From Gammaproteobacteria bacterium (GTDB lineage Bacteria; Pseudomonadota; Gammaproteobacteria; Eutrophobiales; Eutrophobiaceae): a stretch of DNA of 41,136 nt. Below, in pieces: positions 4,593 to 28,732 of this stretch (position 1 is its first letter; the number at the start of each line of letters is the position of its first letter). The notes beneath the pieces are model-generated. The model ran no database searches and was not told the origin of the DNA. It was given only the letters and a program-made list of their open reading frames with translations. The stretch is from positions 1 through 41,136 of the forward strand of contig JABHFC010000440.1 of the NCBI GenBank assembly GCA_018676275.1, read 5' to 3'. The position numbers and the translations under genes were made by a program.

Positions 4593-5771
4593 TTATCCGA
4601 AGGTAAAGTGCTGAGTTTGATGTGCGTCTATATAGTCCCAGTCGTAACTGACACCAAGACCGGGCCCGTCTGGTACCGGCACATAACCATCAGAAGGCAT
4701 GTCTTCGGTTTGGTCAGAATAGCCACAGGTGTAGACAGGCGGCACCATATTCGGCATATCCGGGCCGACCAGAGCCAATTCATACATGAGGGTATTACGC
4801 ATTGCCGAGATGCACAGGCGATGAGCCGGGCCTACTGCGTGTAATTGAAGGTCAAGCCCCAGGGCTTCGCAAAAATGGGCAATTTTCATCACACCAGTGA
4901 TACCCATATCATATTCCGGATCCGCATGGATCATGTCGCAGCCACCATTAATAAGAAATGACGCTTTTTGTTCGAGACCGCGGACATGTTCACTTATTAG
5001 CAATGGTGTTTTCAACTTTTCTCTGAGACGCTGATGACCAAAAGCGGACACTGACAGATCACGGTAAGGATCTTCATACCAGAGGCAGTTAACTTCGTCT
5101 GCTACTTTGCCAAGTGCAAGCGCATCCATCCAGGTACGTAACATACAGGCAGGATCGATCATCAGGGCATAATCATCACCGACTCGTTCACGAACACCAC
5201 GCAGGTTAAGCGCTTCCCGGTTTACATCACCAGTTTTCCAGCCATGGATCTTAAACCCATGAAAACCGATTTTCTTACAGTGTTCGGCATAATCTGCGTA
5301 ATCCTCAGCAGTGTTCAGGCCGCCTTTACTTTCCTGTCCACCGTATGTGCTGGCATAAGTTGGCAAACGATCTCGATAACCCCCGAGCATGGATTTGATC
5401 GATACATTGTGCATTCTACCAACCAGATCCCAGATAGCGATATCGAGCGCACCGTGGCCCATATGATCATAGGCGCGTATTTCCCACTTAAGCATATCGT
5501 AGATTTCTTCACGCAATTCAGGATCGCGACCAAGTAGTAATGGCGCCAGCATACATGCCTGTCCGAATGAGGAGGGCGTGCCAACCCAATTGGTGACATA
5601 GCCACCTTCGATGCCTTCATCATTTTTGATACGTACGGCCCAGCGTTTCGGCGAGAATTTCGAACCTTTAACGTAGGCCATATTGCCGACGCCAGCAGCA
5701 GCTGTTTCGAGCCCGATATTTTCGACACTGAAACTAAATTCAGTTAACGAGACTGATGTGATTTTCGTCAT
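4593..5771 (-). CDS. enolase-superfamily enzyme (mandelate racemase / muconate lactonizing enzyme family), paralogue 1
   Basis: MR/MLE-like barrel with candidate metal ligands in MIDPA, WYEDP and ISEH contexts. I chose the ATG at 5771 because AGGGGA lies 7-12 nt upstream. The track's longer form starts at a GTG at 5789 inside that Shine-Dalgarno. Confidence 0.85.
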   Translation of the reverse strand: MTKITSVSLTEFSFSVENIGLETAAAGVGNMAYVKGSKFSPKRWAVRIKNDEGIEGGYVTNWVGTPSSFGQACMLAPLLLGRDPELREEIYDMLKWEIRAYDHMGHGALDIAIWDLVGRMHNVSIKSMLGGYRDRLPTYASTYGGQESKGGLNTAEDYADYAEHCKKIGFHGFKIHGWKTGDVNREALNLRGVRERVGDDYALMIDPACMLRTWMDALALGKVADEVNCLWYEDPYRDLSVSAFGHQRLREKLKTPLLISEHVRGLEQKASFLINGGCDMIHADPEYDMGITGVMKIAHFCEALGLDLQLHAVGPAHRLCISAMRNTLMYELALVGPDMPNMVPPVYTCGYSDQTEDMPSDGYVPVPDGPGLGVSYDWDYIDAHQTQHFTFG

Positions 5772-5796
5772 GTGCAATCCCCTGACCACATAATTT

Positions 5797-6705
5797 CTAT
5801 TTTCCTATGTTTATATCCAGCCAGTAATTTTCGTCATCACTTAAATGCCTGATATAACCAGCGGTAGGTGTCGGAAAATGTGTGCCAATAATTAGTACAT
5901 CGGAATCGACATATTTTGAAAACATTTCTTTGCGTGTCTGTAGTCCTTTACTCTGGTCATCATCTGCCGAGCTACACCAGTGAGGCCGTGACATCTGCAC
6001 AGGATGGTGAACAAAGTCACCTGTTATCACGGCTTCTTTGCCTTCTGAACTTATGTGTACGCTGACATGACCTGGGGTGTGCCCGGGTGTGGGTATCAAA
6101 TTTACTCCTGCGCATACCTGATGTTCGCAATCAACCAGATCCATTAAACCGGCCTCTACAACAGGACGCACCGATTGTTGCATTACCGGGCCGATTTCGA
6201 TTTCATCTTCATGAGCATTCCAGTGATTCCATTCTTCTTTTGCAAACAAATAACGTGCATTGCTGAATGTTGGAACCCACTTATCATCCACGAGCATCGT
6301 ATTCCAACCAACATGATCAACATGTAAATGTGTGCAAAGTACGGTATCAATCGATTCGGCAGGATACCCGGCATCTTCCAGATCGCTGAGGAAACCTGTC
6401 TGCATCTTATCCCAGTCAGGAACGGCGAGTTGCTTGTCATTACCAATACAGGTGTCAACCATTATTCTTTTTTCACCTGTATCGATGATCAATGCATGTA
6501 CACTGAGAATAAGATCACCATCATCATTCATGAAATGTGGCTTCATCCAGTCAAGAGATAAGCACAGATCATTTTCAGCATCAGGTAAAACAAAAGCATT
6601 ATTGCCACTGACAACTAATTCGACGATACGTGTTATTTTAATCTTACCGATTTGCCATTGTGTAGAGTTGTCTCTATCAGTAATACATTCTTTAAATGCC
6701 ATCAT
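5797..6705 (-). CDS. MBL-fold metallo-hydrolase (lactonase-like)
   Basis: 302 aa with the HxHxDH motif (THLHVDHVGW), downstream His (TPGHTPGH) and Asp/His ligands, as in AHL-lactonase-like metallo-beta-lactamase fold proteins. Confidence 0.85.
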   Translation of the reverse strand: MMAFKECITDRDNSTQWQIGKIKITRIVELVVSGNNAFVLPDAENDLCLSLDWMKPHFMNDDGDLILSVHALIIDTGEKRIMVDTCIGNDKQLAVPDWDKMQTGFLSDLEDAGYPAESIDTVLCTHLHVDHVGWNTMLVDDKWVPTFSNARYLFAKEEWNHWNAHEDEIEIGPVMQQSVRPVVEAGLMDLVDCEHQVCAGVNLIPTPGHTPGHVSVHISSEGKEAVITGDFVHHPVQMSRPHWCSSADDDQSKGLQTRKEMFSKYVDSDVLIIGTHFPTPTAGYIRHLSDDENYWLDINIGK

Positions 6706-6726
6706 AGCGTTTCTCCCGATTTATAA

Positions 6727-8007
6727 TTAATCAAACAAGCGCTTGCCCGAGGCAAACAGCAAATAAAATATCAGCCCAAAAAAATAAACGGCAGCAGCGA
6801 CTTGAAAAACCAGCGCCCAAGAACCTGTCCAACCGAGAATCAGACCACTGATATAAATACCGATAATGCCGGGGATAGTGCCAGCGGTATTTGATAAACC
6901 CATTAATACTCCAGCGTAACGCGGCGCAATGTCGAGATGGTTGACGATAAAACCACCAGCAGAAAAAGCGATAAAAACATTTGCCAGGGTCATTAATGCA
7001 ATGGCTGCGGGAGCACTTTGTACATAGCCAACGAACATTAATATTATTGCCGGACCGCCAAAGCCTATCGCTTGCATAGACTTACGAATAGTTGTTGTTT
7101 GCCAGCCGCGCTGAGCCAATTTATCCGCAATCACTCCCGCTATATTAAAAAATAGAAAGGCGGCTATGTAGGGAAACATTGCAAAAATTCCGACAGAAGC
7201 AAAATCAACGTTTAAACCCTTGTTTACGTAAGTTGGTAACCAGGCGAGCAGGACATAAGTACCCCAGTTGGAACAAAAATGTCCAATGATGATGGCCCAG
7301 ACTGCAGGTGATGAAAGTAAAACTTTCCAGGGAGGCGCTTCGGTTGCGTCACTAGGAGCGGCGTCTTTACTTATCAGCTCGCGTTCCTGTTTGCTAATGC
7401 CAGGGTGATTATCCGGGTAGGAAGTGACCGCGTATTGCCAGATGGCAAACCATATTACGCCAAACAAACCAAAGGAATAAAAAGCCCATTGCCAGCCATA
7501 GTTGAGTACGATCCATGGCGTTACTAATAAGCCAAACACAACTCCTAAAGGGATAGCCGAAAAAGTCGCGCCAATGGCACGAGCGCGTTCCTGTTGTGGC
7601 AACCAGCGACCATAGATGCTGTAGATTGCCGGTAGCGCAACTCCTTCACCTGCACCCATTCCAATTCGAGCGAGGATAAGACCAGTGACTCCGGCCAGCG
7701 CGGCAAAAGGTGTAATAAAGGTAAATATCGACCAGATAAGAACCGCGAACCCGAGTATTAACTTGCCACCAAAACGATCTGCGAGTCGCCCACCTATAAC
7801 CTGTGTCAATAAATAGCCGACAAAAAATGAGGATAATATTGTGCCCTGAACTTCCGGTTGCCATCCGAGTTCTTTGGACATAGGGATGATGGCTACAGAA
7901 ATATTCACGCGATCCATGTAGCAGACGAACATGGCTGCGATGGACAGGCCGGTAAGTGTAAAACGTTTTGGCCAGTATTCTCTCAGGGACAGAGCCTGTT
8001 GAGTCAT
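6727..8007 (-). CDS. MFS transporter, anion:cation symporter (ACS) type
   Basis: 426 aa, about 12 predicted TM segments, and an MFS loop motif GGRLADRFGGK. It resembles the organic-acid / sugar-acid permease subfamily. Confidence 0.85.
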   Translation of the reverse strand: MTQQALSLREYWPKRFTLTGLSIAAMFVCYMDRVNISVAIIPMSKELGWQPEVQGTILSSFFVGYLLTQVIGGRLADRFGGKLILGFAVLIWSIFTFITPFAALAGVTGLILARIGMGAGEGVALPAIYSIYGRWLPQQERARAIGATFSAIPLGVVFGLLVTPWIVLNYGWQWAFYSFGLFGVIWFAIWQYAVTSYPDNHPGISKQERELISKDAAPSDATEAPPWKVLLSSPAVWAIIIGHFCSNWGTYVLLAWLPTYVNKGLNVDFASVGIFAMFPYIAAFLFFNIAGVIADKLAQRGWQTTTIRKSMQAIGFGGPAIILMFVGYVQSAPAAIALMTLANVFIAFSAGGFIVNHLDIAPRYAGVLMGLSNTAGTIPGIIGIYISGLILGWTGSWALVFQVAAAVYFFGLIFYLLFASGKRLFD

Positions 8008-8057
8008 AATGAGGTTTAACTATCCTTTAGTGACAAGATTGAGAGTTTAGATCTTCG

Positions 8058-9164
8058 CTAGGGCATTCTTAATATTGGTTTGATTACCTCACCTGTACCG
8101 GCACTGTCATGAACGGCCTGGTTGATATCGGCGAAATCATAGAATTTCACAAAACGATCATAAGGTAGCCTTCCAGCGCGGAATAATTCAGCCAGGTAAG
8201 GTACAAAATTCTGTACGTTGGCTTCGCCCATAACGACACCACGAATACCACGACCGAACACCACCTGGTCCATTTCCAGGGGTACAGTTATTCCTGATGG
8301 CGTAACACCTACCTGTGCGCACCAGCCTGGTGGTGTTAAGCAATTAACAGCTTGTATTACGACTTCGGGCACACCGGTGCATTCGACGGAATAATTTGCA
8401 CCGCCGCCGGTTATGGACTGAATGTTTTCAACAACATCTTCCTCTTGTGCATTAACGATCGCTGTTGCGCCAATTTCCATTGCCATTTCAAGTCGTGATG
8501 GATTCACATCAATAACAATAATTTTCTCACAGCCCGCTAAACGCGCGCCCATAGCTGCCGAAAGTCCAACAGTACCGGCACCGAAAATTGCGATACTTGA
8601 GCCGGGGTTTGGTTTTAGAGCATTCATAACGGTACCAACACCGGTAGTCAGACCGCAGCCCAGTGGACCCAATAATTCCAGCGGTAAATCCTTTGGAACT
8701 TTGATAACACCGGGAGCCGATGCAATAACGTTTGTGGAGAATGATGATTGTCCCACAAAGCGACCACGCATTGGTTCGCCATTGCAAACAAGACATGAAC
8801 TACCGTCTACTCTTTCGCCAGTTAGATTACGTTCGACAAATTCTTTGCAGTAAAAAGGTAAGCCCTGATGACAGTTACTACAGTGTCCACAGGAGTCACC
8901 ACATAACACTACATGATCGCCGACCTTAACATGAGTAATAGCGCCACCTACTTCCTCGACGACGCCAGCACCTTCGTGACCGAGAACCATAGGCAAAGGT
9001 AGTGCGAAAGATTGTTCTTTGACGGCGATGTCAGTATGGCAGATACCGGTTGCCTTGATTTTGACTCTTACTTCATTGGCCAGCGGAGGTAGTAAGTCCA
9101 TTTCGACGAGTTCGAAAGGTTCTTCTGGTGAGCGTGCGACCGCGGCAAGTGTCTGTATTGTCAT
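8058..9164 (-). CDS. Zn-dependent NAD(P) alcohol dehydrogenase (aryl/benzyl-alcohol-DH-like MDR)
   Basis: GICHTD and GHEGAG catalytic-Zn motifs, the structural-Zn cysteine cluster CGHCSNCHQG, and a Rossmann GAGTVG. Confidence 0.85.
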   Translation of the reverse strand: MTIQTLAAVARSPEEPFELVEMDLLPPLANEVRVKIKATGICHTDIAVKEQSFALPLPMVLGHEGAGVVEEVGGAITHVKVGDHVVLCGDSCGHCSNCHQGLPFYCKEFVERNLTGERVDGSSCLVCNGEPMRGRFVGQSSFSTNVIASAPGVIKVPKDLPLELLGPLGCGLTTGVGTVMNALKPNPGSSIAIFGAGTVGLSAAMGARLAGCEKIIVIDVNPSRLEMAMEIGATAIVNAQEEDVVENIQSITGGGANYSVECTGVPEVVIQAVNCLTPPGWCAQVGVTPSGITVPLEMDQVVFGRGIRGVVMGEANVQNFVPYLAELFRAGRLPYDRFVKFYDFADINQAVHDSAGTGEVIKPILRMP

Positions 9165-9252: not shown

Positions 9253-9318
9253 AGTATAGAGGAGCTGATCTGTGTGACTTTTACTGTGGATGCCAGCTTT
9301 TTATCTTTTGGTGCCAAA
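9253..9318 (-). promoter_or_regulatory. activator-type promoter module, copy 1: 41-bp conserved element (9278-9318) plus -10 TATACT (complement of 9253-9258)
   Basis: CTTTTACTGTGGATGCCAGCTTTTTATCTTTTGGTGCCAAA matches the copy at 23040-23080 at 37/41 positions (hand count). It contains TGCCA twice, 21 bp apart. The -10-like hexamer sits 25 bp from the element edge, exactly as in the other two copies. It faces the ADH-MFS-MBL-enolase-aminotransferase operon. Confidence 0.6.
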
Positions 9319-9327
9319 GCTGGTATT

Positions 9328-10383
9328 ATGAAAACATCAATGTTCACCTACTCCTTAACAAATAGCTGGCTCTCAGCCCTGGTCAGGGCGGTAGAGACCT
9401 ATGGCATTGACCCACATGATTTACTGGTTGGTGAACTGAAATCGGATGATCTTAGTGATCCAGTCAATGCCAGAATTGATCATTATTCCATGACCAGAAT
9501 ATGGAGGCGGGCTGCGGTAATTACCAATGATCCAGCGATTGGGCTCGTTGCTGCGAGTTTTGTTGGTCCTGCTACATTTGGTTCAGTGTCATTTGCCATG
9601 AATGCCAGTGACTGTTCATCGACCGCTCTACGAACTCTGGTTCGTTACAATCAGCTCGGATCCAATGCAGCAACATGGACCTTTCGACAGGATGAAAAAT
9701 ATGTCGAGCTGACCCAGAAAATGAGAGGTCCAATAGGGGCACCGGAACAAAAAGATGCAAATGTAGCGGCGATATTAAGTATTTGTCGAAGTCTGGGTGA
9801 CCCAAGTCTTCGTTATGAAAAACTTGTCATTGGCAGACCGGCGCCAAAGGATATCTCCCGATGGCGGGATTATTTTTCACTCATTCCTGAATTTCAGGAC
9901 AACGGAACCAGCTTTATGCGCTTGCCGCGAGAGTCTGTCGATAAACGCTGGCCAAATTATGAACCAGAATTATTTGAATTGAGCATTTCAATACTGGAAA
10001 GGCAATTGAAACAAGTTGGCAAGTCATCTTTTCTGGCTCAGGTGAAAGCAGAAATAATTGAAGGAATGGAACAGGGTAATATCCATATTGATCTGGTAGC
10101 AGAAAAACTTGGTATTAGTCGGCGGACATTGCAAAGACGCCTCTGGTCCGAAAGTAACTACACTTACAGCAACTTGTTTCAGGCAGTTCGGCGTTCACTT
10201 GCCAACCGATACCTTGTCAGTTCATCTCGAACTATAGAAGAAATCAGTGATCTGCTTGGATATTCGAATGTTTCAAGTTTCAGTCGAAGTTTTCGCCAGA
10301 GTTTTGGTGTCACTCCTTCGAAATACAGACGTGAATCTAATAGTTCAGATATAGAAATACTGGAGCCGATAGGGCCTCTCTGA
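9328..10383 (+). CDS. AraC/XylS-family transcriptional regulator
   Basis: C-terminal double-HTH signature (ISRRTLQRRL ... IEEISDLLGYSNVSSFSRSFRQSFGVTPSKYR) and an N-terminal AraC-type effector-binding-like domain. The track ORF begins at 9019, but that part overlaps the divergent ADH gene. I take the first ATG clear of that overlap, 9328 (MKTSMFTYS). Confidence 0.85.
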   Translation: MKTSMFTYSLTNSWLSALVRAVETYGIDPHDLLVGELKSDDLSDPVNARIDHYSMTRIWRRAAVITNDPAIGLVAASFVGPATFGSVSFAMNASDCSSTALRTLVRYNQLGSNAATWTFRQDEKYVELTQKMRGPIGAPEQKDANVAAILSICRSLGDPSLRYEKLVIGRPAPKDISRWRDYFSLIPEFQDNGTSFMRLPRESVDKRWPNYEPELFELSISILERQLKQVGKSSFLAQVKAEIIEGMEQGNIHIDLVAEKLGISRRTLQRRLWSESNYTYSNLFQAVRRSLANRYLVSSSRTIEEISDLLGYSNVSSFSRSFRQSFGVTPSKYRRESNSSDIEILEPIGPL

Positions 10384-10395: not shown

Positions 10396-11409
10396 TCAGG
10401 GGTTTACCTGCACTTTAATCGAAAGCTGTTTTTTATCTTCTGCTGCGGAAAACGCTTCAACAATTTGATCAAGCTTGAATCGGTGTGTAATAAGCAGTTC
10501 AAGTTTTTCAGCATGCTTATTAACAAGCTCACCTGCCACTTTAAAATCAGAATTCTGGTTTTCATGCCCGTGACAATTTGAAGCGACCAGTGATAACTCA
10601 TTGGTAAGAAATCGTAACGCGGGTAATTCCGGGTTACCCCTGAATGCTCCAAGCATTAGAATCGTCCCGCCGGTTTTGGCAAGCAGAACTGAATCAGACA
10701 ATGTAGTGGCATTACCGCCAACTGTTTCCACAACCACATCTATATATTGGTCACCAAGTTCATTTAGCAATTCATCTGAATTTGCAAAAACTCTGGTGGC
10801 ACCAAAATGTTTAGCAACTTCCTGTTGATGTGGATGGCGTGCACTAATGAAAACTTCATTTGCCCCTCCTGCATAGGAACTCAGAATGGAAAGAAGACCA
10901 ATTGAACCTGCACCAAGTATAGCGACGCGAGCACCTATATTAATTTTCGCGCGTCTTGTACCGCGTACACAGACGGCCATGGGTTCAGTTAGTGCAGAGA
11001 CATTAGCTGAAAGAGTAGTATTCAGTGGATAGACGAGTGATTCCGGAATCTGAATGAGTTCTGCCAATCCACCTGGTTGCGAGTAGCCAAAAAAATCCTT
11101 CGTCGCACAACGATTGGGACTGCCACTGTTACAATGCTGGCAATGACCACATCCGAACACCGGTTCAATAGCAACCGCAGTACCGGTAGCAAGATTAACA
11201 TTGTCGCCAACTACATCGATTACTCCTGCTATTTCATGCCCGGGTCGAATACCTTCCGGTGAACCCAGTTCGCCATTCTTAATATGCAAATCAGTACCAC
11301 AAATTCCTACTGCCGTGACCGCCAGCTGCAACCACCCCGGTTGCAGTTCCGGGATGTCGACGTTTTTAAGGTTTACACTACCGTCTGCAGAATATACTGC
11401 CGCTTTCAT
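10396..11409 (-). CDS. Zn-dependent MDR dehydrogenase (sorbitol / threonine-dehydrogenase-like)
   Basis: 337 aa with GICGTDLH, GHEIAG, CGHCQHCNSG and a Rossmann GAGSIG. Confidence 0.85.
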   Translation of the reverse strand: MKAAVYSADGSVNLKNVDIPELQPGWLQLAVTAVGICGTDLHIKNGELGSPEGIRPGHEIAGVIDVVGDNVNLATGTAVAIEPVFGCGHCQHCNSGSPNRCATKDFFGYSQPGGLAELIQIPESLVYPLNTTLSANVSALTEPMAVCVRGTRRAKINIGARVAILGAGSIGLLSILSSYAGGANEVFISARHPHQQEVAKHFGATRVFANSDELLNELGDQYIDVVVETVGGNATTLSDSVLLAKTGGTILMLGAFRGNPELPALRFLTNELSLVASNCHGHENQNSDFKVAGELVNKHAEKLELLITHRFKLDQIVEAFSAAEDKKQLSIKVQVNP

Positions 11410-11423
11410 ATCGAGGCAGGAGC

Positions 11424-12548
11424 CTAGTCTTCAAGCACCAGATCGGGATCAATTTCCACACCAAGACCAGGAGCCTGGGGCATATTCATATAACCCTCAG
11501 CATCAACAACCGGTGGATTGGTTAGTATGGACAGGAAGTTCTGGTAGGCTCCAATTGGTGGGTCATTTACCAGTTCGATGTATGGAGCGTGAGTCCAACT
11601 GGCGACCATATGCATGTGTGCAATCAATCCCAGCTTGACGTAACCGTTGTGCGGAACCACTTGTTTATTGTGTTTTCTGGCGAGCTCACCTACTTTCAGT
11701 GTCTCAGTAATACCCGTCAATACCAGGCATTCAGGTTGTAAAATACTGTAGACGTTTCGCTCGCACATCTGTTCGAACTCATACAGGATGCCACTATTTT
11801 CACCGCCGGCTATTGGTATCTCTAAGGCCTCACCTAAACTTATCAGTTCTTCTAAAGCGTAACGTGGTCTGGGTTCTTCAAGCCAGGCACAATTCAGATT
11901 TTGTAATTCAAGACCGGTTTCATAAGCACGCTGATAATCCCATCTCACTCCCGGTTGCCAGTCACCTTTTGATTGTGCCTGATTGGCATCAACCATAATT
12001 TGCATATCATCACCGACAGCTTCGCGTACACAGGTGACTGTGCGAATATCTTCCTGCATGGTTTCATGATGTAAACGTACTTTTATTGCCTGCCAGCCAT
12101 CTGCTTTTAGTTTCAGTGCCATTTCTGCGCGTTCTTCAGGTGTTGATAACAACACCATAGCTGCATAAGGAACAATCTTGTCCTTTGTGCCACCCCAAAG
12201 CTTGTAAAGTGGCTGACCTTTCGCTTTGCCTACGATATCCCATAAGGCAATATCAACGCCGGCAACATGTTGATAGTGAGTTCCGTATGGCAGGTAGTAT
12301 TCTAATTGTGCACTTAATTGCTCGACATCCAGCGGGTTTTTACCAATCAGGATTTTTTCCAAAGCAGGGAGGAAGCGATCATCAATTTCAGGACCAATGC
12401 CGCAAATGCCTTCGTCCGTCTGTATCTCGACATAGCTACCACCGCCTAATTGAACCGGTAATTTGTCACCCGGGCTCCAGGCCAGATCCAGTGTGCCAAT
12501 TTCTTCAATCACGCGTAAGCGTCGAATCCGTACGTTTGAAATTTTCAT
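11424..12548 (-). CDS. enolase-superfamily enzyme (MR/MLE family), paralogue 2
   Basis: 374 aa with an N-terminal capping domain and a barrel carrying IKVRL, MVDANQ, WLEEP, AGGEN and PHNG contexts, typical of acid-sugar dehydratase / racemase members. Confidence 0.85.
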   Translation of the reverse strand: MKISNVRIRRLRVIEEIGTLDLAWSPGDKLPVQLGGGSYVEIQTDEGICGIGPEIDDRFLPALEKILIGKNPLDVEQLSAQLEYYLPYGTHYQHVAGVDIALWDIVGKAKGQPLYKLWGGTKDKIVPYAAMVLLSTPEERAEMALKLKADGWQAIKVRLHHETMQEDIRTVTCVREAVGDDMQIMVDANQAQSKGDWQPGVRWDYQRAYETGLELQNLNCAWLEEPRPRYALEELISLGEALEIPIAGGENSGILYEFEQMCERNVYSILQPECLVLTGITETLKVGELARKHNKQVVPHNGYVKLGLIAHMHMVASWTHAPYIELVNDPPIGAYQNFLSILTNPPVVDAEGYMNMPQAPGLGVEIDPDLVLED

Positions 12549-12586
12549 GCTAGGCCTTTTATATATTTCTCATTGAATAAACATAT

Positions 12587-14797
12587 CTATTGATTAGACA
12601 GCCAGGTTAACCTGGCACTTTCTTTATTTCCCAAAACGACAGCTCGATCTTCATAAGCGCGTGCGCGTACGTAATGGTGAATTTTTTCTACTTCATCCAG
12701 GGAAAGCACATCGTCGAAAGCCGCCATGCCATTCGTAGCTAATAGGCCTTCAAGCACAACACGGCTAAAAATTTCATGCTTTCCGTCTGTGAGTAAACGT
12801 AAATCAGGGATAGAACCACCGGAGCGTGCCAGTAGACCATGACACATCGCGCAATAATTGTTGTACAGTCCTTCACCCTCTCCAATAATATTTTCACTAA
12901 CAACAACGACTGATTGCTGCGGAATTATTCTGTCTATAGCATTTGGAACAGGTAATTTTTCATTGCCGCCAATTTTAAAAACTAACAAGCGACCTAAGTT
13001 GCCATACTTTGTTGATGCAGTTTCAGTTTCACCACCGAATAGATCTGCACCGCCACCACCGGTTAAGACTGAAACGTATTGAGTATCATCAAGTTGAAAT
13101 GTAACTGGTGGTGCCAACATAGAGGTGTAAGTATTAAACTGCCATAACAAGTCTCCATTTTCCTTGTCATAGGCGCTAAACATGCCGGCAGCATCGCCCT
13201 GAAAAACCAGGCCACCTGAGGTTGCCAGCACACCACCATTCCAGTAATAGGGGTTTCTGACTGTCCATTTTGTCTCGCCAGTGAGTGGATCAAAAGCCTT
13301 GAGTGCGCCGCCCGGGGTGGGTTGCTCAGCAACATTGTCTATAAACAGCTGTGCAAGTCTTCCCATTTCCAGACCAATGTTCCATCTACCTGGGTTGCGT
13401 TTATAACTACTGAATTGTTTCCATTCATCGGCAATGGCAAAAATAAGCGGACTTTCCTGTGTTGGGATGTAAACAAGTCCCGCCTCAGTATCAACGGACA
13501 TAGCTTGCCAGTTATGTGCACCGGCTGACCCTGGCAAGACCCATTTCTCTTTTTCAAGATAACTATAGTCGGGGTTTTCTACCGGGCGGCCACTCTCCAG
13601 ATCAACATGGGTAGCCCAGGTGACAAGACTATATGGGTGGGCTCGTAATAATTTTCCATTGCTGCGATCCAGAACATAAAAAAAGCCATTCTTTGGTGCC
13701 TGCATTAATACCTTACGTTGTTCACCGTCAACTTCTATTTCCGCCAGAGCAATGTCCTGTACTGCGGTGTAGTCCCAGTTATCTCCCGGAGTGGTCTGGT
13801 AATACCAGTTCATTTTGCCGCTGTCGGCATCCAAAGCAACTATGGAAGACAGAAACAGATTGTCGCCACCATCAGGTGATCGAATGGCGCGTGTCCACGG
13901 TGAACCATTACCTACGCCAATATATAGTTGATTGAAATCAGGATCGTAAACAATGGAATTCCATACTGTACCGCCACCACCAAATTTCCAGTACTCGTTA
14001 CCGCTCCAGCTGGCGGCGGCCAGTTCCAGTTCAGGATGCTCAAATGGTAAGGCAGGGTCGCCGGGTACGGTAAAGAAACGCCATGCCTGTTTTCCTGTTT
14101 TCGCGTCGTAGGCAGTTACATATCCCCGCACACCAAATTCTGCGCCACCATTTCCAATGAAGACTTTACCTTTGGCAACTCGTGGGGCTCCGGTGATTGT
14201 GTAGAAGCGATTACGGTCAATAAGCGTATCTACCTGCCAGACTTCTTCACCACTACCTGCGTCCAGTGCAATAAGTCGACCATCAAGAGTTCCCACATAC
14301 ACGTGTCCCTGGTATACGGCAACACCACGATTAACGGCGTCACAGCAGGCGCGACGAGACCAGTCCTTTGGAACATCAGGGTCATATTGCCAGAGTATTT
14401 CACCTGTCTTTGCTTTAATCGCAAAAACTTTACTCCAGGCACTACTGACAAACATGATGCCATCTACAACAATTGGGGTGGCCTCCTGGGCGCGGTTAGT
14501 GCCCATGTCGAGGTGCCATTCCAGACCAAGTTTTTTGATCGTGTTTTTGTTGATCTTTTTTAGTGGAGAAAAACGTTGTTCTTCATATCCAAGACCATAA
14601 GACATCCAGTTATTGGGTTCACCATCATGATTTATTATTCTTTCATCAGTAATGTTGCCGACAATGCTGGTTTCATTTTGTTTGGCTTCAGGTTTTTGCG
14701 CAGCTTGATCAGTAGAGGTCGAATTGTCACAAGCACCAAGACTTAGCAATACAGAAATCACGGCTATCTTCATTATTGAAAAATGCCTGATTGTCAT
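12587..14797 (-). CDS. quinohaemoprotein (type II) PQQ-dependent alcohol dehydrogenase, possibly lipid-anchored
   Basis: 736 aa with a PQQ beta-propeller and the vicinal Cys-Cys (SRRACCDAVNRG). The C-terminal cytochrome c domain has CAMCHG. The N-terminus MKIAVISVLLSLGAC has a lipobox-like LGAC. Confidence 0.9.
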   Translation of the reverse strand: MTIRHFSIMKIAVISVLLSLGACDNSTSTDQAAQKPEAKQNETSIVGNITDERIINHDGEPNNWMSYGLGYEEQRFSPLKKINKNTIKKLGLEWHLDMGTNRAQEATPIVVDGIMFVSSAWSKVFAIKAKTGEILWQYDPDVPKDWSRRACCDAVNRGVAVYQGHVYVGTLDGRLIALDAGSGEEVWQVDTLIDRNRFYTITGAPRVAKGKVFIGNGGAEFGVRGYVTAYDAKTGKQAWRFFTVPGDPALPFEHPELELAAASWSGNEYWKFGGGGTVWNSIVYDPDFNQLYIGVGNGSPWTRAIRSPDGGDNLFLSSIVALDADSGKMNWYYQTTPGDNWDYTAVQDIALAEIEVDGEQRKVLMQAPKNGFFYVLDRSNGKLLRAHPYSLVTWATHVDLESGRPVENPDYSYLEKEKWVLPGSAGAHNWQAMSVDTEAGLVYIPTQESPLIFAIADEWKQFSSYKRNPGRWNIGLEMGRLAQLFIDNVAEQPTPGGALKAFDPLTGETKWTVRNPYYWNGGVLATSGGLVFQGDAAGMFSAYDKENGDLLWQFNTYTSMLAPPVTFQLDDTQYVSVLTGGGGADLFGGETETASTKYGNLGRLLVFKIGGNEKLPVPNAIDRIIPQQSVVVVSENIIGEGEGLYNNYCAMCHGLLARSGGSIPDLRLLTDGKHEIFSRVVLEGLLATNGMAAFDDVLSLDEVEKIHHYVRARAYEDRAVVLGNKESARLTWLSNQ

Positions 14798-14869: not shown

Positions 14870-14935
14870 ATGATAGAGAAGCCGGTGTAATGTGCTTTTG
14901 CAGTGGATGCCACTTTTTTACCATTTGGTGTCATT
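14870..14935 (-). promoter_or_regulatory. activator-type promoter module, copy 2: 41-bp element (14895-14935) plus -10 TATCAT (complement of 14870-14875)
   Basis: CTTTTGCAGTGGATGCCACTTTTTTACCATTTGGTGTCATT matches the 23040 copy at 35/41 positions (hand count). TGCCA / TGTCA are 21 bp apart and the offset to the -10 is the same 25 bp. It faces the PQQ-ADH / enolase / Zn-ADH operon. Confidence 0.55.
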
Positions 14936-14989: not shown

Positions 14990-16852
14990 TCAACTCTTAA
15001 TGGCTTCAAAATCCTGAAGACGTCCTAAATCACGGACAGCACCTTCAGATGCGGATGTGGCCATAAGTCCATACATGCGTAAAGCCGTTGATACTTTACG
15101 TTGACGTACTGGTTGCCATGCTTTTGCGCCTTTTGCCAATTCAATCTCTCGACGCTGTGTTATTTCGACTTCGGAGACAAGTAATGAGATGGATTTATTC
15201 TCAACATTAATATGAATTTGATCACCATCTTTGATCAGGGCAATCAAACCACCGGCAGCGGCTTCAGGTGAAATGTGACCGATGGAAAGTCCGGAAGTCG
15301 CGCCGGAAAATCGACCGTCAGTAATCAAAGCGCATACCTTACCCAAACCATGCGCTTTCAATATGCCGGTTGGTGCAATCATTTCCTGCATCCCTGGACC
15401 GCCACGAGGACCTTCATAACGGATTACAACCACATGCCCTGCTTTCACTGTTCCATTTTTTATCGCATTGACAGAGTCATCCTTGCTATCGAAACAGATC
15501 GCACTACCTTCAAAATCAAAACAATTCGGGTCGACGGCAGCAGTTTTCAGCACACAACCTTTTTCAGCCAGGTTACCGTGCAATACAGCAATACCACCTG
15601 ATTGATAAAAGGCATTTTGCCTGTTACGTATAACCCCTTCCTCACGATCATTGTCGACAGTCTCAAAGCGTTCGTTTTGTGTAAAGGCACCGAGACTAAA
15701 TCTGCCACCCGGTGCCGCGCGATATAAATTTATGGCTTCATCATCATCAGATTCAGTTATATCCCACTTTTTCAGTGCAGACTTTAGTGTCTTTTCGTGT
15801 ACTGTCATTACATCCGTATTTATCAGCTGTGCGCGATTAAGTTCTCCAAGAACACTCATCACTCCTCCGGCCCGGTGCAGGTCTTCGATGAATACCTGTT
15901 CAGCGGCTGGTGTGACTTTACATAAGTAAGGTGTCTCATCCGCAATACGACCAATATCATCCATCGTGAAATCGACACCTGCCTCACGTGCTATGGCAAG
16001 AACGTGCAAAACAGTATTGGTTGACCCACCCATAGCAATCGAAACACGCATAGCATTTTCAATTGCGGCATAACTTGCAATTGATCGAGGTAATACATTC
16101 TGGTTTTCGTCGTCGTAATAAGCATTCGCCAACTCGACTATGCGTTTACCAGCCTGTCGAAACAGGCCTTCTCGAGCTTTATGTGTTGCTAACAACGTTC
16201 CATTACCGGGTAAGGCCATGCCCAGGGCTTCTGATACACAGTTCATGGAGTTAGCTGTGCCCATAAGTGCGCAGGAACCACAGGTTGGGCAGGCAGAGCG
16301 CTCAACATCCAGTATGTCATCAGCACTGGACTCGGGATTACCACTTACAATCAGGGTATCAATAACGTCAATCTTGATAGTCTTACCACTCACAGTCGCT
16401 CTGCCGGATTCCATTGGTCCGCCTGAAACAAAAATGGCGGGTATATTTAGTCGCATTGCTGCCATCAACATTCCCGGCGTGATCTTGTCGCAATTGGAAA
16501 TACAAAGAAGCGCATCGGCACAATGCGCGTTGACCATATACTCGACTGAGTCCGCAATCAGATCACGTGAAGGTAATGAATAAAGCATGCCGTCATGGGA
16601 CATTGCAATACCATCGTCAACGGCAATGGTGTTGAATTCTTTGGGCACACCACCGGCTGCCTTAATCTCATCCGCGACCAGTCTACCCAGTTCTTTCAAA
16701 TGTACATGTCCAGGTACAAACTCGGTAAAGGAATTGGCAATAGCAATAATCGGTTTGCCAAAATCTTCTTCGCGCGTACCGGTAGCACGCCATAGTGCTC
16801 TGGCAGCAGTACCTAAAGTACCCTCAGTAGTTTTACTGGAATTCAGTTTCAT
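14990..16852 (-). CDS. ilvD: dihydroxy-acid dehydratase
   Basis: 620 aa. Long blocks look like enterobacterial IlvD as I recall it ([78 protein letters not shown]). Confidence 0.9.
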
Positions 16853-16870
16853 TAAGTATCTCCGTTAAAA

Positions 16871-17878
16871 TTAGACAAAGTCTTCAAGCCGTTGAATAAC
16901 CCAGAATGCGGCAATAGAACCAATAACAGGTGAGAAGATCTTTTCCTGATACGAGAAGGTTTGTTTGCCTTGCCATGCGAATTGCTTTTGGAGCAGGTGA
17001 ATAAAAGCACCAATCAAAAGTAAAAGAAGAATAAAAGCGATTTGCCCCAGCTCCACACCAATATTAAAAAATAACAAGCCAAGCCCTAATGCTGTTTGGG
17101 GTAAGCCGAGTTCCAGTAGCACGTTGGCAAATCCAAGACCATGAAACAAGCCGAAAAAAGAAGACACAAGAAAAGGTTTTTGATAACTCAGAGATTGTTT
17201 GTTTCCACGTACAATTTCTGCGGCAAGAAACACAATGCTCAGTGCGATACAGGTCTCCACATAGGCAGTTGGAAGACGCACTAAATTCAATACAGATGCT
17301 GCCAGGCTGATACTGTGGGCAACAGTGAAACCCGTTATCGTCCACAACAGCAGTTTGTAGTTTTGCACAAGGATCATCAGGCAAACAATGAATAGAAGAT
17401 GATCCACGCCGAAAGCAATATGCTTGATACCGAGCACTGTGTAGGATTGGATGATAGTTGTCTTGTTTTCCTTTTCCGGGATTAAATACTCCGGAGAAAT
17501 ATTTAATAAGATCTTTGTGTGGGTTTGACCGGATAAAAAAGAAATTCGGACAAAGGCAGAAATACCAATATTTAAATCCAGACCATTAACACTAATCCTT
17601 TTACCGGCAAGTCCTCCTTCACAGTAAAGAAGCTGATTACTTACCCTGGCATAGGAAAGATCCGAATTGGCAGAAGTTTTTTTTGCACAGGACTCGGGAA
17701 ATACCGGATAAAGCTTGCCCTTCATCAGACCACCTTCTGGGCTTTTCCAAAGCACGCTATACGTGTCGGATTGAATCTCCTTAATTTCGAGTAAAAAAGG
17801 TCGACTTTCGTGGGCAATTACACTTGTTGTGGCAAACAGCAAAAATATAAGCAGCAAGCTGTAGAAAGGCCTATTCAT
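16871..17878 (-). CDS. HupE/UreJ-family membrane protein with an N-terminal periplasmic extension
   Basis: C-terminal six-TM region with the GIKHIAFGVDHLLFIV motif. The ATG at 17878 gives a signal peptide (MNRPFYSLLLIFLLFATTSVIAHE) and overlaps the upstream stop by 8 nt (ATGAATAG). The track's start at 17947 would overlap the upstream gene by 77 nt. Confidence 0.75.
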   Translation of the reverse strand: MNRPFYSLLLIFLLFATTSVIAHESRPFLLEIKEIQSDTYSVLWKSPEGGLMKGKLYPVFPESCAKKTSANSDLSYARVSNQLLYCEGGLAGKRISVNGLDLNIGISAFVRISFLSGQTHTKILLNISPEYLIPEKENKTTIIQSYTVLGIKHIAFGVDHLLFIVCLMILVQNYKLLLWTITGFTVAHSISLAASVLNLVRLPTAYVETCIALSIVFLAAEIVRGNKQSLSYQKPFLVSSFFGLFHGLGFANVLLELGLPQTALGLGLLFFNIGVELGQIAFILLLLLIGAFIHLLQKQFAWQGKQTFSYQEKIFSPVIGSIAAFWVIQRLEDFV

Positions 17879-18749
17879 ATTCTCTGAGTACTGAGTACTT
17901 CTCAATAATACTCTGTCGCGAAAGCTTGTTGAGGCGTTGTTTTTCACGATACGTATAGGAGTTCGCGACTAAATCGCGAATGGATTCGAACGAGGGGATG
18001 TATCCTGGTTCTTTACTATTGATATATACCAGATGGTAACCGTAGCCGGACTCTATAGGCCCTTGCCAGTGATCTTCGGGTTCAAGTTTGAATAAGGAAT
18101 CAGTGAATTTAATGCCAAAATGTGATTTCGATTGAGTCGGTGTGATTTTTGTATATTTATGATTTAAGGGAAAGCGATCGCCATGAGACAGGGCTTCTTT
18201 TATTTCCAGCTGTTTGTTGTTTAATAGTTTTAGTGTGTTCTCGGCTTTTGTTATTGTGTTTTTCCCATGTTGATCTGAACTTAAATAAACATGAGCGAAA
18301 GAGACTTTATCATCTGTCTTGAATTCTTCACTGTTAGTTTCGTAATAAGCCAGCAAGTTATCATGACTGGTATCAATTTTGCCGGTGTTAAGATCCTCAA
18401 GTAAAAATGATAGCTTTTGAATCATTCGTCGTTTAATGATGAAATCATTTTCATTAAGTCCCATTTCCAATGCCATACGATAAAGAGCTTCTTCTTCAAT
18501 ATATTCCATCGCGAGCACTTCTTTTTCTTTCTCATCCAGTGAAGCGAGTGCAGCATTTACATTGAACTGACCTTCCGGATTTTTACTACGAACATTGAGC
18601 ATGTTCTTCAGGATAGAATCGTTTACGACGATTGTGTTGTCGTTATAACTATCTGCAGGAACAGGATTAAGAAACTGATAGGCAAGGTAGAGTAGGGCTC
18701 CTGCGAGGAGAAAATGGAATATAGGTTCCTTAACGATCTTACTAAACAT
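17871..18749 (-). CDS. membrane-anchored parvulin-like peptidyl-prolyl isomerase domain protein
   Basis: 292 aa with an N-terminal TM anchor (IFHFLLAGALLYLAY) and a C-terminal PpiC/rotamase-like segment (FKLEPEDHWQGPIESGYGYHLVYI). Confidence 0.65.
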   Translation of the reverse strand: MFSKIVKEPIFHFLLAGALLYLAYQFLNPVPADSYNDNTIVVNDSILKNMLNVRSKNPEGQFNVNAALASLDEKEKEVLAMEYIEEEALYRMALEMGLNENDFIIKRRMIQKLSFLLEDLNTGKIDTSHDNLLAYYETNSEEFKTDDKVSFAHVYLSSDQHGKNTITKAENTLKLLNNKQLEIKEALSHGDRFPLNHKYTKITPTQSKSHFGIKFTDSLFKLEPEDHWQGPIESGYGYHLVYINSKEPGYIPSFESIRDLVANSYTYREKQRLNKLSRQSIIEKYSVLREYE

Positions 18750-18772
18750 ACTGAGTGCTACAGCTCATTTTT

Positions 18773-20536: not shown

Positions 20537-20630
20537 GAGCCCTCCATCTATTGAACGTCAGTTATTCTAAAAATTGAATATCAAGTCAGTAGGCTTTATT
20601 GCGCACAAGTTAAATCGAGTGTGTTAGCGC

Positions 20631-20668
20631 AAAGAAAAAAAGAGATGCCATTAGGGCACCTCTTTTTT
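20631..20668 (-). terminator. rho-independent terminator after the TonB-dependent receptor gene
   Basis: AGAGATGCC-ATTAG-GGCACCTCT (9-bp stem, one A.C mismatch), flanked by AAAGAAAAAA and TTTTTT. On the minus strand the hairpin is followed by a U-run, 38 nt after the stop at 20706. Confidence 0.7.
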
Positions 20669-20705
20669 GAGAAGGAGCTAAATAAATTTCTTTGACTTGT
20701 AATTT

Positions 20706-23014: not shown

Positions 23015-23080
23015 AGTATAGTAGAGAGGCACCAGCCTACTTTTGCAGTGGATGCCAGCTTTTTAACATTTGGTGCCAAA
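23015..23080 (-). promoter_or_regulatory. activator-type promoter module, copy 3: 41-bp element (23040-23080) plus -10 TATACT (complement of 23015-23020)
   Basis: CTTTTGCAGTGGATGCCAGCTTTTTAACATTTGGTGCCAAA. TGCCA occurs at 23053 and 23074 (21 bp apart). The -10 sits 25 bp from the element edge and about 33 nt upstream of the receptor ATG at 22982. The element lies in the divergent region shared with the + strand enolase/aldolase operon. Confidence 0.6.
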
Positions 23081-24400: not shown

Positions 24401-24447
24401 CCTCTTCTTTTAATCGATTTGAATTTTTAACCAGAGATATATTCTTA

Positions 24448-28729: not shown

Positions 28730-28732
28730 GTC

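What the first reader, a model, noticed from the sequence alone, without database searches (positions are those of the whole stretch)
9253..9318. Conserved 41-bp promoter element, copy 1: likely operator of the adjacent AraC-family regulator, ending 9 nt before its start codon
The same 41-bp sequence occurs three times in the window (9278-9318, 14895-14935, 23040-23080), always in this orientation and always in a promoter region of a minus-strand catabolic operon. Copy 1 matches copy 3 at 37/41 positions. Each copy contains two TGCCA-type half-sites 21 bp apart (two helical turns, direct repeat). Each is followed, at exactly the same 25-bp offset, by a -10-like hexamer on the minus strand (TATACT here). 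If the hexamer is -12..-7, the element covers about -32 to -72. That is the classic layout of AraC/XylS-family class II activator sites. Copy 1 faces the ADH-MFS-MBL-enolase-aminotransferase operon and ends only 9 nt before the AraC gene ATG at 9328. Occupancy should therefore also autoregulate the regulator. I do not recognise this site from any described regulon.
Basis: partly seen in the sequence, partly recalled or inferred. Interest (0 to 1): 0.65.

Follow-up and report, generated by a model that had tools for sequence, protein, structure and literature searches.

The report
AraC-type operator shared by three promoters
A 41-bp tandem-repeat DNA site occurs three times in this marine bacterial gene cluster and is very probably where the neighbouring AraC-family regulator binds to switch on three catabolic operons and control its own gene; it is a well-supported but ordinary example of a textbook arrangement.

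Summary
Three copies of a 41-bp element (9278-9318, 14895-14935, 23040-23080) share one orientation. Each lies upstream of a minus-strand operon: Zn-ADH/MFS/lactonase/enolase, quinohemoprotein ADH/enolase/ADH, and TonB receptor/DUF3604/IlvD. A matrix trained only on sites from other loci finds exactly these three in 41 kb (54-64 bits; best shuffle 21.5).

The element is two bipartite half-sites (TGGCAYC..TG..AAA) repeated every 21 bp. It is conserved at the same promoters in 13 related metagenomic loci, at 81-89% identity against 47-69% for flanks. It follows a relocated target gene and flips strand with a flipped operon. A TAnnnT -10 hexamer lies 19 nt downstream in 18 of 19 sites, and there is no -35. 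This puts the site at -32 to -72, the class II AraC/XylS layout.

New here: an invariant extended -10 (TGnTATTAT, 9321-9329) faces the regulator gene, 2 nt beyond the element's right edge (9318). The site therefore covers -18 to -58 of the regulator's own promoter. The true start codon is probably 9340, not 9328.

The dispersed-repeat, sigma-54, RNA and coding readings all fail. Binding, transcription starts and the inducer remain untested. It is a new member of a known kind.

The parts
9278..9318 (-). Copy 1 of the 41-bp operator. Read on the minus strand it is TTTGGCACCAAAAGATAAAAAGCTGGCATCCACAGTAAAAG. The distal half-site is at 9298-9318 and the proximal half-site at 9278-9297. It lies between the divergent Zn-ADH operon and the AraC gene.
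   Evidence: orthologous copies in L001, L003, L005, L008, L009, L010, L013, L015
9253..9258 (-). -10-like hexamer TATACT of the predicted Zn-ADH operon promoter, 19 nt downstream of the element. Predicted transcription start is near 9246.
   Evidence: Invariant A.TATA block in alignment A3. Same offset in 18 of 19 sites, and substitutions keep TAnnnT.
9321..9329 (+). Extended -10 TGgTATTAT of the predicted promoter of the regulator gene. The hexamer starts 8 nt beyond the distal core, and 2 nt separate the element's edge from the TG. Predicted start is near 9336, so the element covers -18 to -58 of this promoter.
   Evidence: CTGnTATTAT is invariant in six orthologous loci. CATAAT sits at the same offset in the 47-48% identity group. 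This holds whether the start codon is 10, about 30, 79-93 or about 223 nt beyond the hexamer.
9340..10383 (+). AraC/XylS-family regulator (Arabinose_bd PF12625 plus HTH_18/HTH_AraC). The probable start is ATG 9340 (MFTY..., aligning with the conserved MSTY of orthologs). The ATG at 9328 lies inside the -10 hexamer.
4593..9164 (-). Target operon 1: Zn-ADH (8058-9164), MFS transporter (6727-8007), MBL-fold lactonase-like hydrolase (5797-6705) and an enolase-superfamily enzyme (4593-5789). The class V aminotransferase (3367-4494) follows after a 99-nt gap and is present only in some orthologous loci.
   Evidence: synteny
14895..14935 (-). Copy 2 of the operator, upstream of the quinohemoprotein dehydrogenase operon. 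It lies between two minus-strand genes, so it can only serve a minus-strand promoter.
14870..14875 (-). -10-like hexamer TATCAT of the predicted promoter for copy 2. It is TATTAT or TATGAT in orthologs.
10396..14797 (-). Target operon 2: type II quinohemoprotein (PQQ plus cytochrome c) alcohol dehydrogenase (12587-14797), an enolase-superfamily enzyme (11424-12548) and a Zn-ADH (10396-11409).
23040..23080 (-). Copy 3 of the operator, between the TonB-dependent receptor operon (-) and the enolase/aldolase pair (+).
23015..23020 (-). -10-like hexamer TATACT of the predicted TonB-receptor operon promoter.
14990..22982 (-). Target operon 3: TonB-dependent receptor (20706-22982), DUF3604 (18773-20536), PpiC-type rotamase (17871-18749), HupE/UreJ (16871-17947) and an IlvD/Edd-family dehydratase (14990-16852).
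   Evidence: synteny
23117..23122 (+). Candidate -10 (TATAGT) for the divergent enolase/HpcH-aldolase pair, at +39 to +44 from the distal core. This would put the element at about -50 to -90, an upstream class I-like position. This part is tentative.
   Evidence: Same offset in L016, L017 and L005, and a TATTAT at the same offset before the POR gene in L008 and L010. L004 does not fit.
23189..25209 (+). Possible fourth transcription unit: an enolase-superfamily enzyme (23189-24400) and an HpcH/HpaI-type aldolase (24448-25209).

Best explanation
The 41-bp element is the operator of the adjacent AraC/XylS-family regulator (9340-10383). It has two bipartite half-sites (TGGCAYC-n-A-n-TG-nn-AAA) repeated in tandem every 21 bp, so two regulator subunits can sit on the same face of the helix, each using its two helix-turn-helix motifs. 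At three promoters the promoter-proximal half-site ends 19 nt upstream of a -10 hexamer, and its last 4 nt occupy the place of a missing -35 hexamer. The site therefore spans about -32 to -72. In this position an effector-bound dimer is expected to recruit RNA polymerase through sigma-70 region 4 and the alpha subunit (class II activation). That would switch on the Zn-ADH/MFS/lactonase/enolase operon, the quinohemoprotein-ADH/enolase/ADH operon and the TonB-receptor/DUF3604/IlvD operon. At copy 1 the same bound protein covers -18 to -58 of the regulator's own extended -10 promoter, which fires in the opposite direction, so it also autoregulates, most likely by repression as AraC does at its own promoter. 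Shown here: the repeat structure, the copy number, the conservation, the fixed geometry and the link to the regulator gene. Inferred: binding, activation, the transcription start sites, the sign of autoregulation and the effector.
For: Exactly three sites in 41 kb using a matrix trained on other loci. A 21-bp tandem period. 19 sites (15 distinct) in the window and 10 related loci, all intergenic and all upstream of the same gene types. Element identity is 81-89% against 47-69% for the aligned flanks. The invariant blocks in three footprint alignments are only the element and the -10 hexamers. In L005 the Zn-ADH gene has moved 4 kb from the regulator and still carries a site. In L006 and L007 the operon is on the other strand and the site is inverted with it. 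In L004 the PQQ gene is fused into the TonB-receptor operon and only one site is present. The half-site core changes from TGGCAYC to TGGCGYC in loci whose regulator is only 46-48% identical. The -10 hexamer is at a fixed offset and its substitutions preserve consensus. No sigma-70 -35 was found. The regulator has the AraC/XylS double HTH, with recognition-helix residues invariant across 29 orthologs. It is the only regulator gene in the cluster. The layout matches XylS at Pm and MtlR at PmtlE as described in PMC5481539 and PMC4514859.
Against: No binding or expression data exist, and metatranscriptomes gave no coverage, so the transcription starts are only predicted from hexamers. The assignment to this particular regulator rests on adjacency and co-variation. 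In L004 the ADH|AraC intergenic site is badly degenerate although the regulator is intact. In L007 the site upstream of the regulator has no -10 at the expected offset. Whether the regulator represses or activates its own promoter cannot be decided from sequence.
Confidence: 0.8

Rival explanations
1. The element is a real operator, but for a different transcription factor encoded elsewhere in the genome. The adjacent AraC gene would then be just another member of that factor's regulon.
For: Only adjacency and co-variation link the site to this protein. One relative (L001) carries a second AraC-family gene 6 kb away.
Against: The site co-occurs with this regulator's orthologs in every locus examined. 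It abuts the regulator's own promoter in 8 loci. Its core sequence changes exactly where the regulator drops to 46-48% identity. The 21-bp tandem bipartite architecture is the AraC/XylS signature. The second AraC gene of L001 is absent from the window.
Confidence: 0.1
2. The adjacent AraC-family protein binds the element but acts mainly as a repressor of the three catabolic promoters, relieved by the substrate.
For: Some AraC-family proteins repress. At copy 1 the site overlaps the regulator's own promoter core.
Against: The catabolic promoters have a good -10 but nothing resembling a -35, and the site ends where a -35 would begin. This is an activator-dependent design. A repressor site would be expected to overlap the -10 or the start point, which it does not.
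Confidence: 0.07
3. The element is a REP/MITE-like dispersed repeat, or a recombination scar, that happens to lie in intergenic DNA.
For: Three near-identical copies lie within 14 kb.
Against: An exact-pattern scan of 241 million metagenome records found only 7 stretches. Five sites in four stretches are the orthologous promoters. The other three stretches are one unrelated tRNA 3' end in a 33% GC organism. A 1.17-Mb contig of a close relative has only two exact matches, both in this cluster. There is no hairpin potential (z from -0.9 to +1.3), there are no terminal inverted repeats, and orientation and distance to the -10 hexamers are fixed.
Confidence: 0.01
4. Copy 1 is coding sequence: the N-terminal extension of the regulator, as several automatic gene calls have it (369- and 365-aa products beginning VTFTVDASFLSFGAKA or MDASFLSFGAKA).
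For: The frame is open upstream of the gene, and gene callers chose GTG 9274 or an equivalent ATG in four orthologs.
Against: Most of the 28 orthologs start at or within a few residues of the conserved Met of MSTY, and only five gene calls carry the long extension. Copies 2 and 3 have the same DNA with no gene attached. In L003 the element is 236 nt from the start codon, and in L008 and L010 about 100 nt.
Confidence: 0.02

Closest known systems
XylS at the Pm promoter (TOL plasmid, Pseudomonas putida)
   Same: Both have two homologous direct-repeat half-sites, each with a 5' box and a 3' box read by the two recognition helices of one monomer. Both sit immediately upstream of, and touching, the -35 position of an activator-dependent promoter. 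XylS fills the proximal site first and then the distal site, followed by contact with RNA polymerase (PMC5481539).
   Different: The box sequences differ: TGCA-N6-GGTA for XylS against TGGCAYC..TG..AAA here. The effector domains are unrelated (XylS binds benzoates; this protein has the PF12625 Arabinose_bd-type domain). Here one site also covers the regulator's own divergent promoter.
AraC at araBAD/araC (Escherichia coli)
   Same: From my own knowledge of the system, not tested here: tandem 17-bp half-sites I1-I2 with a 21-bp period; the proximal one overlaps the -35 of pBAD by 4 bp, the same overlap as computed here; araC is transcribed divergently and autorepressed by AraC binding over its promoter.
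   Different: In E. coli autoregulation uses separate sites (O1, O2) and a DNA loop. Here a single 41-bp site sits between two start points only about 90 bp apart and would do both jobs. No second upstream site for looping was seen. NCBIfam AraC scores 29 bits against a cutoff of 208, so the protein is not an AraC ortholog.
MtlR at PmtlE (Pseudomonas fluorescens)
   Same: This AraC/XylS-type activator of a polyol operon has a footprint of two similar 15-bp blocks at -72 to -58 and -50 to -36, directly upstream of the -35 (PMC4514859). These are practically the coordinates predicted here (-72 to -32).
   Different: The sequence motif and the regulator subfamily are different. Three promoters share the site here.
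FeaR sites at tynA/feaB (E. coli)
   Same: From memory only, and the paper (PMC3811602) is not held so I could not verify it: FeaR is reported to recognise direct repeats of TGNCA-N8-AAA. The proximal half-site here reads TGGCA-N8-AAA.
   Different: The distal half-site fits only with N9. FeaR has a different N-terminal domain, and the NCBIfam FeaR model scores 44 bits against a cutoff of 199, over the HTH region only.

Membership tests
AraC/XylS-family activator operator (tandem direct repeat, class II position) | A cognate regulator with the C-terminal double helix-turn-helix domain of the family is encoded next to the site | tested here: met
   PF12833 HTH_18 (E = 1.5e-20) and PF00165 HTH_AraC (E = 2e-13), plus PF12625 Arabinose_bd. 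Recognition-helix residues are invariant in 29 orthologs.
AraC/XylS-family activator operator (tandem direct repeat, class II position) | Two half-sites in direct (not inverted) repeat with about two helical turns between them, each half-site bipartite | tested here: met
   Self-similarity is 0.54 at a shift of 21 against 0.18-0.32 elsewhere. Half-site is TGGCAYC-n-A-n-TG-nn-AAA. There is no inverted-repeat or hairpin character.
AraC/XylS-family activator operator (tandem direct repeat, class II position) | The proximal half-site abuts or overlaps the -35 position of a promoter that has a -10 but lacks a consensus -35 | tested here: met
   A TAnnnT hexamer lies 19 nt downstream in 18 of 19 sites. 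It is invariant in the footprint alignments. No TTGACA-like hexamer was found. Geometry was computed from hexamers, not from mapped start sites.
AraC/XylS-family activator operator (tandem direct repeat, class II position) | Transcription starts at the predicted positions | not testable with these tools
   No RNA run holds this sequence, and three metatranscriptomes gave no coverage.
AraC/XylS-family activator operator (tandem direct repeat, class II position) | The regulator binds the site and activates in response to an effector | not testable with these tools
   This needs EMSA or footprinting and reporter assays.
REP/MITE-like dispersed repeat | Many copies scattered through the genome, including non-promoter positions | tested here: not met
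   There are 3 sites in 41 kb and none weaker. There are 2 exact matches in a 1.17-Mb contig of a relative, and all genuine metagenome hits are orthologous promoters.
REP/MITE-like dispersed repeat | Palindromic or hairpin-forming unit, or terminal inverted repeats | tested here: not met
   Folding z-scores range from -0.94 to +1.29 on both strands.
Sigma-54 (-24/-12) promoter | TGGCAC-N5-TTGCW, with GG and GC exactly 10 nt apart | tested here: not met
   None of the three copies matches even with 2 mismatches. By reading, the GG..GC spacing is 8. No sigma-54 activator gene is in the cluster.
Known RNA family (leader or riboswitch) | Match to an Rfam covariance model | tested here: not met
   No family reached its gathering score anywhere in the window.
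QhpR / GliR / CypR / FeaR regulator equivalogs (NCBIfam) | Whole-protein score above the curated cutoff | tested here: not met
   QhpR 159.6 against 250, GliR 89 against 570, CypR 75 against 500, FeaR 44 against 199. The nearest solved structure is VirS at E = 9e-12.

The most novel reading that the evidence does not exclude
The motif defines a compact, previously undescribed regulon of about 16 genes in a widespread uncultured marine gammaproteobacterial lineage. In this reading an unknown alcohol, polyol or sugar-like substrate is taken up by a TonB-dependent receptor, oxidised in the periplasm by a type II quinohemoprotein dehydrogenase, and then processed by a lactonase, three enolase-superfamily enzymes, an IlvD-type dehydratase and an HpcH aldolase. 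A single 41-bp site at copy 1 would serve as activator site for one promoter and autoregulatory site for a near-leaderless regulator transcript starting only about 90 bp away.
Probability: 0.4. Interest if true: 0.5.

Novelty: new member of a known kind. Interest (0 to 1): 0.33.

Why it matters
The element gives a ready-made, testable handle on an uncharacterised catabolic gene cluster that recurs in many seawater metagenomes. A matrix built from the sites can define the regulon in any genome of the lineage. The regulator together with its promoter gives a way to screen candidate inducers and so identify the unknown substrate. Several enzymes of unknown role would be placed in one pathway: DUF3604, three enolase-superfamily proteins and a marine type II quinohemoprotein dehydrogenase. 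It also corrects the start of the regulator gene, which several automatic annotations extend through the operator. Mechanistically it adds nothing new to what is known of AraC/XylS activators.

Tried and rejected
1. My genome-contig scan used a pattern with one N too many (TTNGGTG instead of TTGGTG). It could not match even the window's own copies. Its single hit (Limnohabitans, L011) is what chance predicts for 20 specified bases. The scan is uninformative and could not be repeated, so no named cultured relative was identified.
2. RNA evidence for transcription starts: no RNA run holds the sequence, and laying three metatranscriptomes from a study whose DNA runs hold it gave only a few 35-45-nt partial matches at 90-95% identity.
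3. Literature: searches for DUF3604, QhpR and quinohemoprotein plus AraC found nothing relevant. The first FeaR search was swamped by the word 'fear'. The FeaR paper itself is not held, so that resemblance stays a recollection.
4. Sigma-54 promoter: rejected on spacing.
5. Hairpin, terminator or REP reading: rejected. The terminator-like hairpin the scan reports inside copy 2 (14902-14914) depends on a GC-to-CT change found only in copy 2 and L009 (it is absent from copies 1 and 3), and there is nothing upstream on that strand to terminate.
6. Rfam: no match.
7. Assigning a substrate from the enolase-superfamily proteins: the closest solved structures are structural-genomics entries without a function (2pod, 4dx3), so no substrate can be named.
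8. The complete sigma-70 promoters reported by the consensus scan at 14962-14933 and 23140-23113 lie upstream of the element on the minus strand. They occur at about the rate seen in shuffles, so I gave them no weight.

Full report
OBSERVATION.
- Copy 1: CTTTTACTGTGGATGCCAGCTTTTTATCTTTTGGTGCCAAA
- Copy 2: CTTTTGCAGTGGATGCCACTTTTTTACCATTTGGTGTCATT
- Copy 3: CTTTTGCAGTGGATGCCAGCTTTTTAACATTTGGTGCCAAA
Copies 1 and 3 differ at 4 positions. The core pattern occurs three times, where dinucleotide-preserving shuffles give 0.13 or 0.00. To avoid circularity I built a position matrix from 12 sites in other loci only. It finds exactly these three places in the 41-kb window (54.5, 55.2 and 63.6 bits) and nothing else at 10 bits or more. 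The best score in 200 shuffles was 21.5.

CONTEXT. Pfam and NCBIfam scans give a run of minus-strand operons.
- Operon 1: Zn-ADH 8058-9164, MFS 6727-8007, MBL-fold lactonase-like protein 5797-6705, enolase-superfamily protein 4593-5789, then a class V aminotransferase 3367-4494 after a 99-nt gap.
- Regulator: the AraC-family gene on the + strand.
- Operon 2: Zn-ADH 10396-11409, enolase-superfamily protein 11424-12548, PQQ/cytochrome c dehydrogenase 12587-14797. The last is a type II quinohemoprotein alcohol dehydrogenase (PDB 1kv9, E = 1e-221).
- Operon 3: IlvD/Edd-family dehydratase 14990-16852, HupE/UreJ, PpiC rotamase, DUF3604, TonB-dependent receptor 20706-22982.
- Divergent pair: an enolase-superfamily protein 23189-24400 and an HpcH-type aldolase 24448-25209 on the + strand.
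Copies 1, 2 and 3 lie 114, 98 and 58 nt upstream of the start codons of the Zn-ADH, the PQQ dehydrogenase and the TonB receptor. Copy 2 sits between two minus-strand genes, so it can only serve a minus-strand promoter.

ANATOMY. I collected 19 sites (15 distinct sequences) from the window and related loci. Read in the direction of the operons, the consensus is ttTGgCACCAAATGatAAAAAgcTGGCATCcaCTGCAAAag, with about 56 bits of information. Self-similarity peaks sharply at a shift of 21 nt (0.54 against 0.18-0.32 at other shifts). The unit is therefore a tandem direct repeat of a bipartite half-site, TGGCAYC-n-A-n-TG-nn-AAA. A TAnnnT hexamer starts exactly 19 nt after the element in 18 of 19 sites, and 20 nt after it in the other. 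Its variants (TATACT, TATCAT, TATAAT, TATTAT, TATGAT, TATAGT, TATATT, TAGTGT, TAGTCT) all keep the T-A...T positions that define a -10. The -35 position falls on the last four bases of the element plus two more (AAAGTC, AAAGCA, AAAGTA), which is nothing like TTGACA. The consensus scan finds no complete sigma-70 promoter at these positions.

CONSERVATION. The regulator has about 28 orthologs at 46-100% identity, and then identity drops abruptly to about 32%. All of them come from metagenomes. The window's sequence is held by many seawater metagenome runs. I fetched 10 orthologous loci by protein look-up and five more sites through an exact-pattern scan of the metagenome collection.
- The element is present at the orthologous promoters: Zn-ADH|AraC in L001, L003, L008, L009, L010, L013 and L015; upstream of the PQQ dehydrogenase in L001, L003, L005, L009 and L016; and TonB receptor|enolase in L004, L016 and L017.
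- In alignments of the three intergenic regions, the only invariant blocks are the element and the -10 hexamers. Pairwise identity is 81-89% in the element against 47-69% in the aligned flanks.

Three rearrangements are especially informative.
- In L005 the Zn-ADH gene lies 4 kb away from the regulator and still has its own copy of the element, while the regulator-proximal copy now faces the lactonase gene.
- In L004 the PQQ gene is fused into the TonB-receptor operon, and there is one site instead of two.
- In L006 and L007 a TonB-receptor/PQQ/enolase/ADH/MFS operon runs on the opposite strand. The element is inverted with it and keeps the same distance class to a TAGATT hexamer.
In the loci whose regulator is only 46-48% identical, the half-site core is TGGCGYC instead of TGGCAYC, still with the 21-bp period. 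This is the behaviour expected of a regulator and its operator evolving together.

NOT A DISPERSED REPEAT. The exact pattern (20 specified bases) matched 7 stretches in 241 million metagenome records. Four stretches (five sites) are the orthologous promoters. The other three are one and the same unrelated locus from a 33% GC organism, where a tRNA 3' end (...GGGGATGCCA) followed by a T-run happens to fit. A 1.17-Mb contig of a close relative has only two exact matches, both in this cluster. The element has no hairpin potential, no match to the sigma-54 consensus and no Rfam match.

THE REGULATOR'S OWN PROMOTER (new relative to the finding). On the + strand, an extended -10, TGnTATTAT (window 9321-9329), begins 2 nt to the right of copy 1; its hexamer starts 8 nt beyond the distal core.
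- It is invariant in six orthologous loci, and in the 47-48% identity group it is replaced by CATAAT at the same offset.
- It keeps its position relative to the element whether the start codon lies 10 nt beyond the hexamer (window, L001, L009, L015), about 30 nt (L005), 79-93 nt (L010, L008) or about 223 nt (L003, where a hairpin-repeat insertion has landed in the leader).
- This is what a promoter does and what a ribosome-binding region does not do.
The predicted start is near 9336, so the ATG at 9328 lies inside the -10 hexamer (TATT-ATG) and upstream of the transcript. Most of the 28 orthologs begin at or within a few residues of a conserved Met (MSTY...), which aligns with ATG 9340 (MFTY...). 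The real start is therefore probably 9340, with a leader of about 4 nt. The 365- to 369-aa gene calls in five database entries (VTFTVDASFLSFGAKA...) are the operator read through as protein. Relative to this promoter the element covers -18 to -58. A bound dimer therefore occupies the polymerase's upstream contact region, which supports autoregulation. The two predicted start points, 9246(-) and 9336(+), are only about 90 bp apart with the single site between them.

A POSSIBLE FOURTH UNIT. On the + strand, a TATAGT hexamer lies at +39 to +44 from the distal core of copy 3. The same hexamer sits at the same offset in L016, L017 and L005, and a TATTAT sits at that offset in front of a 1144-aa POR-family oxidoreductase gene in L008 and L010. 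This would place the element at about -50 to -90 of the enolase/aldolase promoter, an upstream class I-like position in reverse orientation. I consider this tentative, because three of the four supporting loci for the enolase are close relatives and L004 does not fit.

MECHANISM. The adjacent AraC/XylS-family protein binds as two subunits to the tandem half-sites, each subunit using its two helix-turn-helix motifs on the TGGCAYC and AAA boxes. With the proximal subunit touching the -35 position, it activates three promoters that have no -35 of their own. At copy 1 it also controls its own divergent promoter, most likely negatively. The architecture matches XylS at Pm (two 15-bp direct repeats, each with a box A and a box B read by helices 3 and 6, proximal site filled first; PMC5481539). 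It also matches MtlR at PmtlE (blocks at -72 to -58 and -50 to -36; PMC4514859). From my own knowledge it resembles AraC at araBAD/araC (I1-I2 with a 21-bp period, a 4-bp overlap of the -35, and divergent autoregulation). The steps that are shown are the sequence features and their conservation. Binding, activation, start sites, the sign of autoregulation and the effector are inferred.

MEMBERSHIP AND NOVELTY. The protein is a member of the AraC/XylS family by domain content, but it is not an ortholog of any named regulator. Its best NCBIfam equivalog, QhpR, scores 160 bits against a cutoff of 250, and the nearest solved structure is VirS at E = 9e-12. I found no description of this motif or regulon. 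A remembered similarity of the proximal half-site to the FeaR motif TGNCA-N8-AAA could not be checked because the paper is not held. The finding is therefore a new member of a well-known kind. The physiological role of the regulon is open. The gene content suggests uptake through the outer membrane, periplasmic oxidation of an alcohol, polyol or sugar-like compound, then lactone hydrolysis, dehydration and aldol cleavage. However, the closest structures for the enolase-superfamily proteins have no assigned function.

LIMITS. One collection scan was wasted on a mistyped pattern, so no named cultured relative was found. No transcript data exist for this organism. The site in the L004 ADH|AraC spacer is degenerate. 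The site upstream of the L007 regulator lacks the expected -10.

VERDICT. Confidence in the operator reading is 0.8. Interest is modest (0.33), because the arrangement is textbook even though this instance is undescribed.

Noticed in passing
window 28655-31131 (repeat units at about 28667-28730, 29967-30030, 30565-30628 and 31053-31115): Four copies of a roughly 60-nt imperfect palindrome, each directly after a small + strand ORF (104-182 aa; two have no Pfam match, one is AIG2-like, one PNPOx-like). Each begins with an RYYYAAC-like box (CATAAC or GCCTAAC) and ends with ACGTTATGC or ACGTTAGC. This looks like integron attC sites, that is, a gene-cassette array. No integrase gene was recognised among the window ORFs I scanned, so it may be an attC cluster without an integrase.
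   Followed up: partly
window 9274-9339, and database proteins P0001, P0003, P0004, P0006, P0007: Automatic gene calls extend the AraC-family protein by 14-18 residues (VTFTVDASFLSFGAKAGI.. or MDASFLSFGAKA..) by reading through the operator. The conserved start is the Met that aligns with window 9340.
   Followed up: yes
L003 9780-9990: An insertion of roughly 225 bp sits between the regulator's -10 and its start codon. It holds two similar hairpin-forming units (GCCGTCATTCCCGTAAAAACGGGAATCCAGTTAAT.. and GCCGTCATTCTGGCGAAGGCCAGAATCCAGTTAAT..), so it looks REP/MITE-like. It shows that the -10 stays with the operator, not with the start codon.
   Followed up: partly
L006 6349-6376, L008 1681-1708, L010 1707-1734, L007 9862-9889: In the distant group (regulator 46-48% identical) perfect TGGCGYC-N14-TGGCGYC sites also lie upstream of a 1144-aa POR/DUF6537 (indolepyruvate-ferredoxin-oxidoreductase-like) gene that is absent from the window. 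The regulon therefore appears to differ between lineages.
   Followed up: partly
L004 9797-10000: The Zn-ADH|AraC spacer of this relative (regulator 71% identical) holds only a decayed version of the element (TTGGTAACA.., with one deletion in the proximal core), while its TonB-receptor site is retained. This could mean loss or weakening of control of that operon.
   Followed up: no
L012 5992-6019, L014 4673-4700, L018 922-949: The only off-target matches of the 20-base pattern in the metagenome collection are one locus of a 33% GC organism, where a tRNA 3' end (GGTTCGAATCCCCTTGGGGATGCCA) followed by a T-run mimics the motif. This is a chance match.
   Followed up: yes
window 14902-14924: Copy 2 alone contains a 5-bp stem (AGTGG/CCACT) followed by a T-run on the + strand, which the scan scores as terminator-like. 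It depends on a GC-to-CT change found only in copy 2 and L009 (absent from copies 1 and 3), and no + strand gene lies upstream, so it is probably fortuitous.
   Followed up: partly
window 31728-38385: A pst-type phosphate ABC transporter operon (PhoU, ATPase, two permeases, periplasmic binding protein) with unusually long permeases (552 and 759 aa). It is unrelated to the finding.
   Followed up: no
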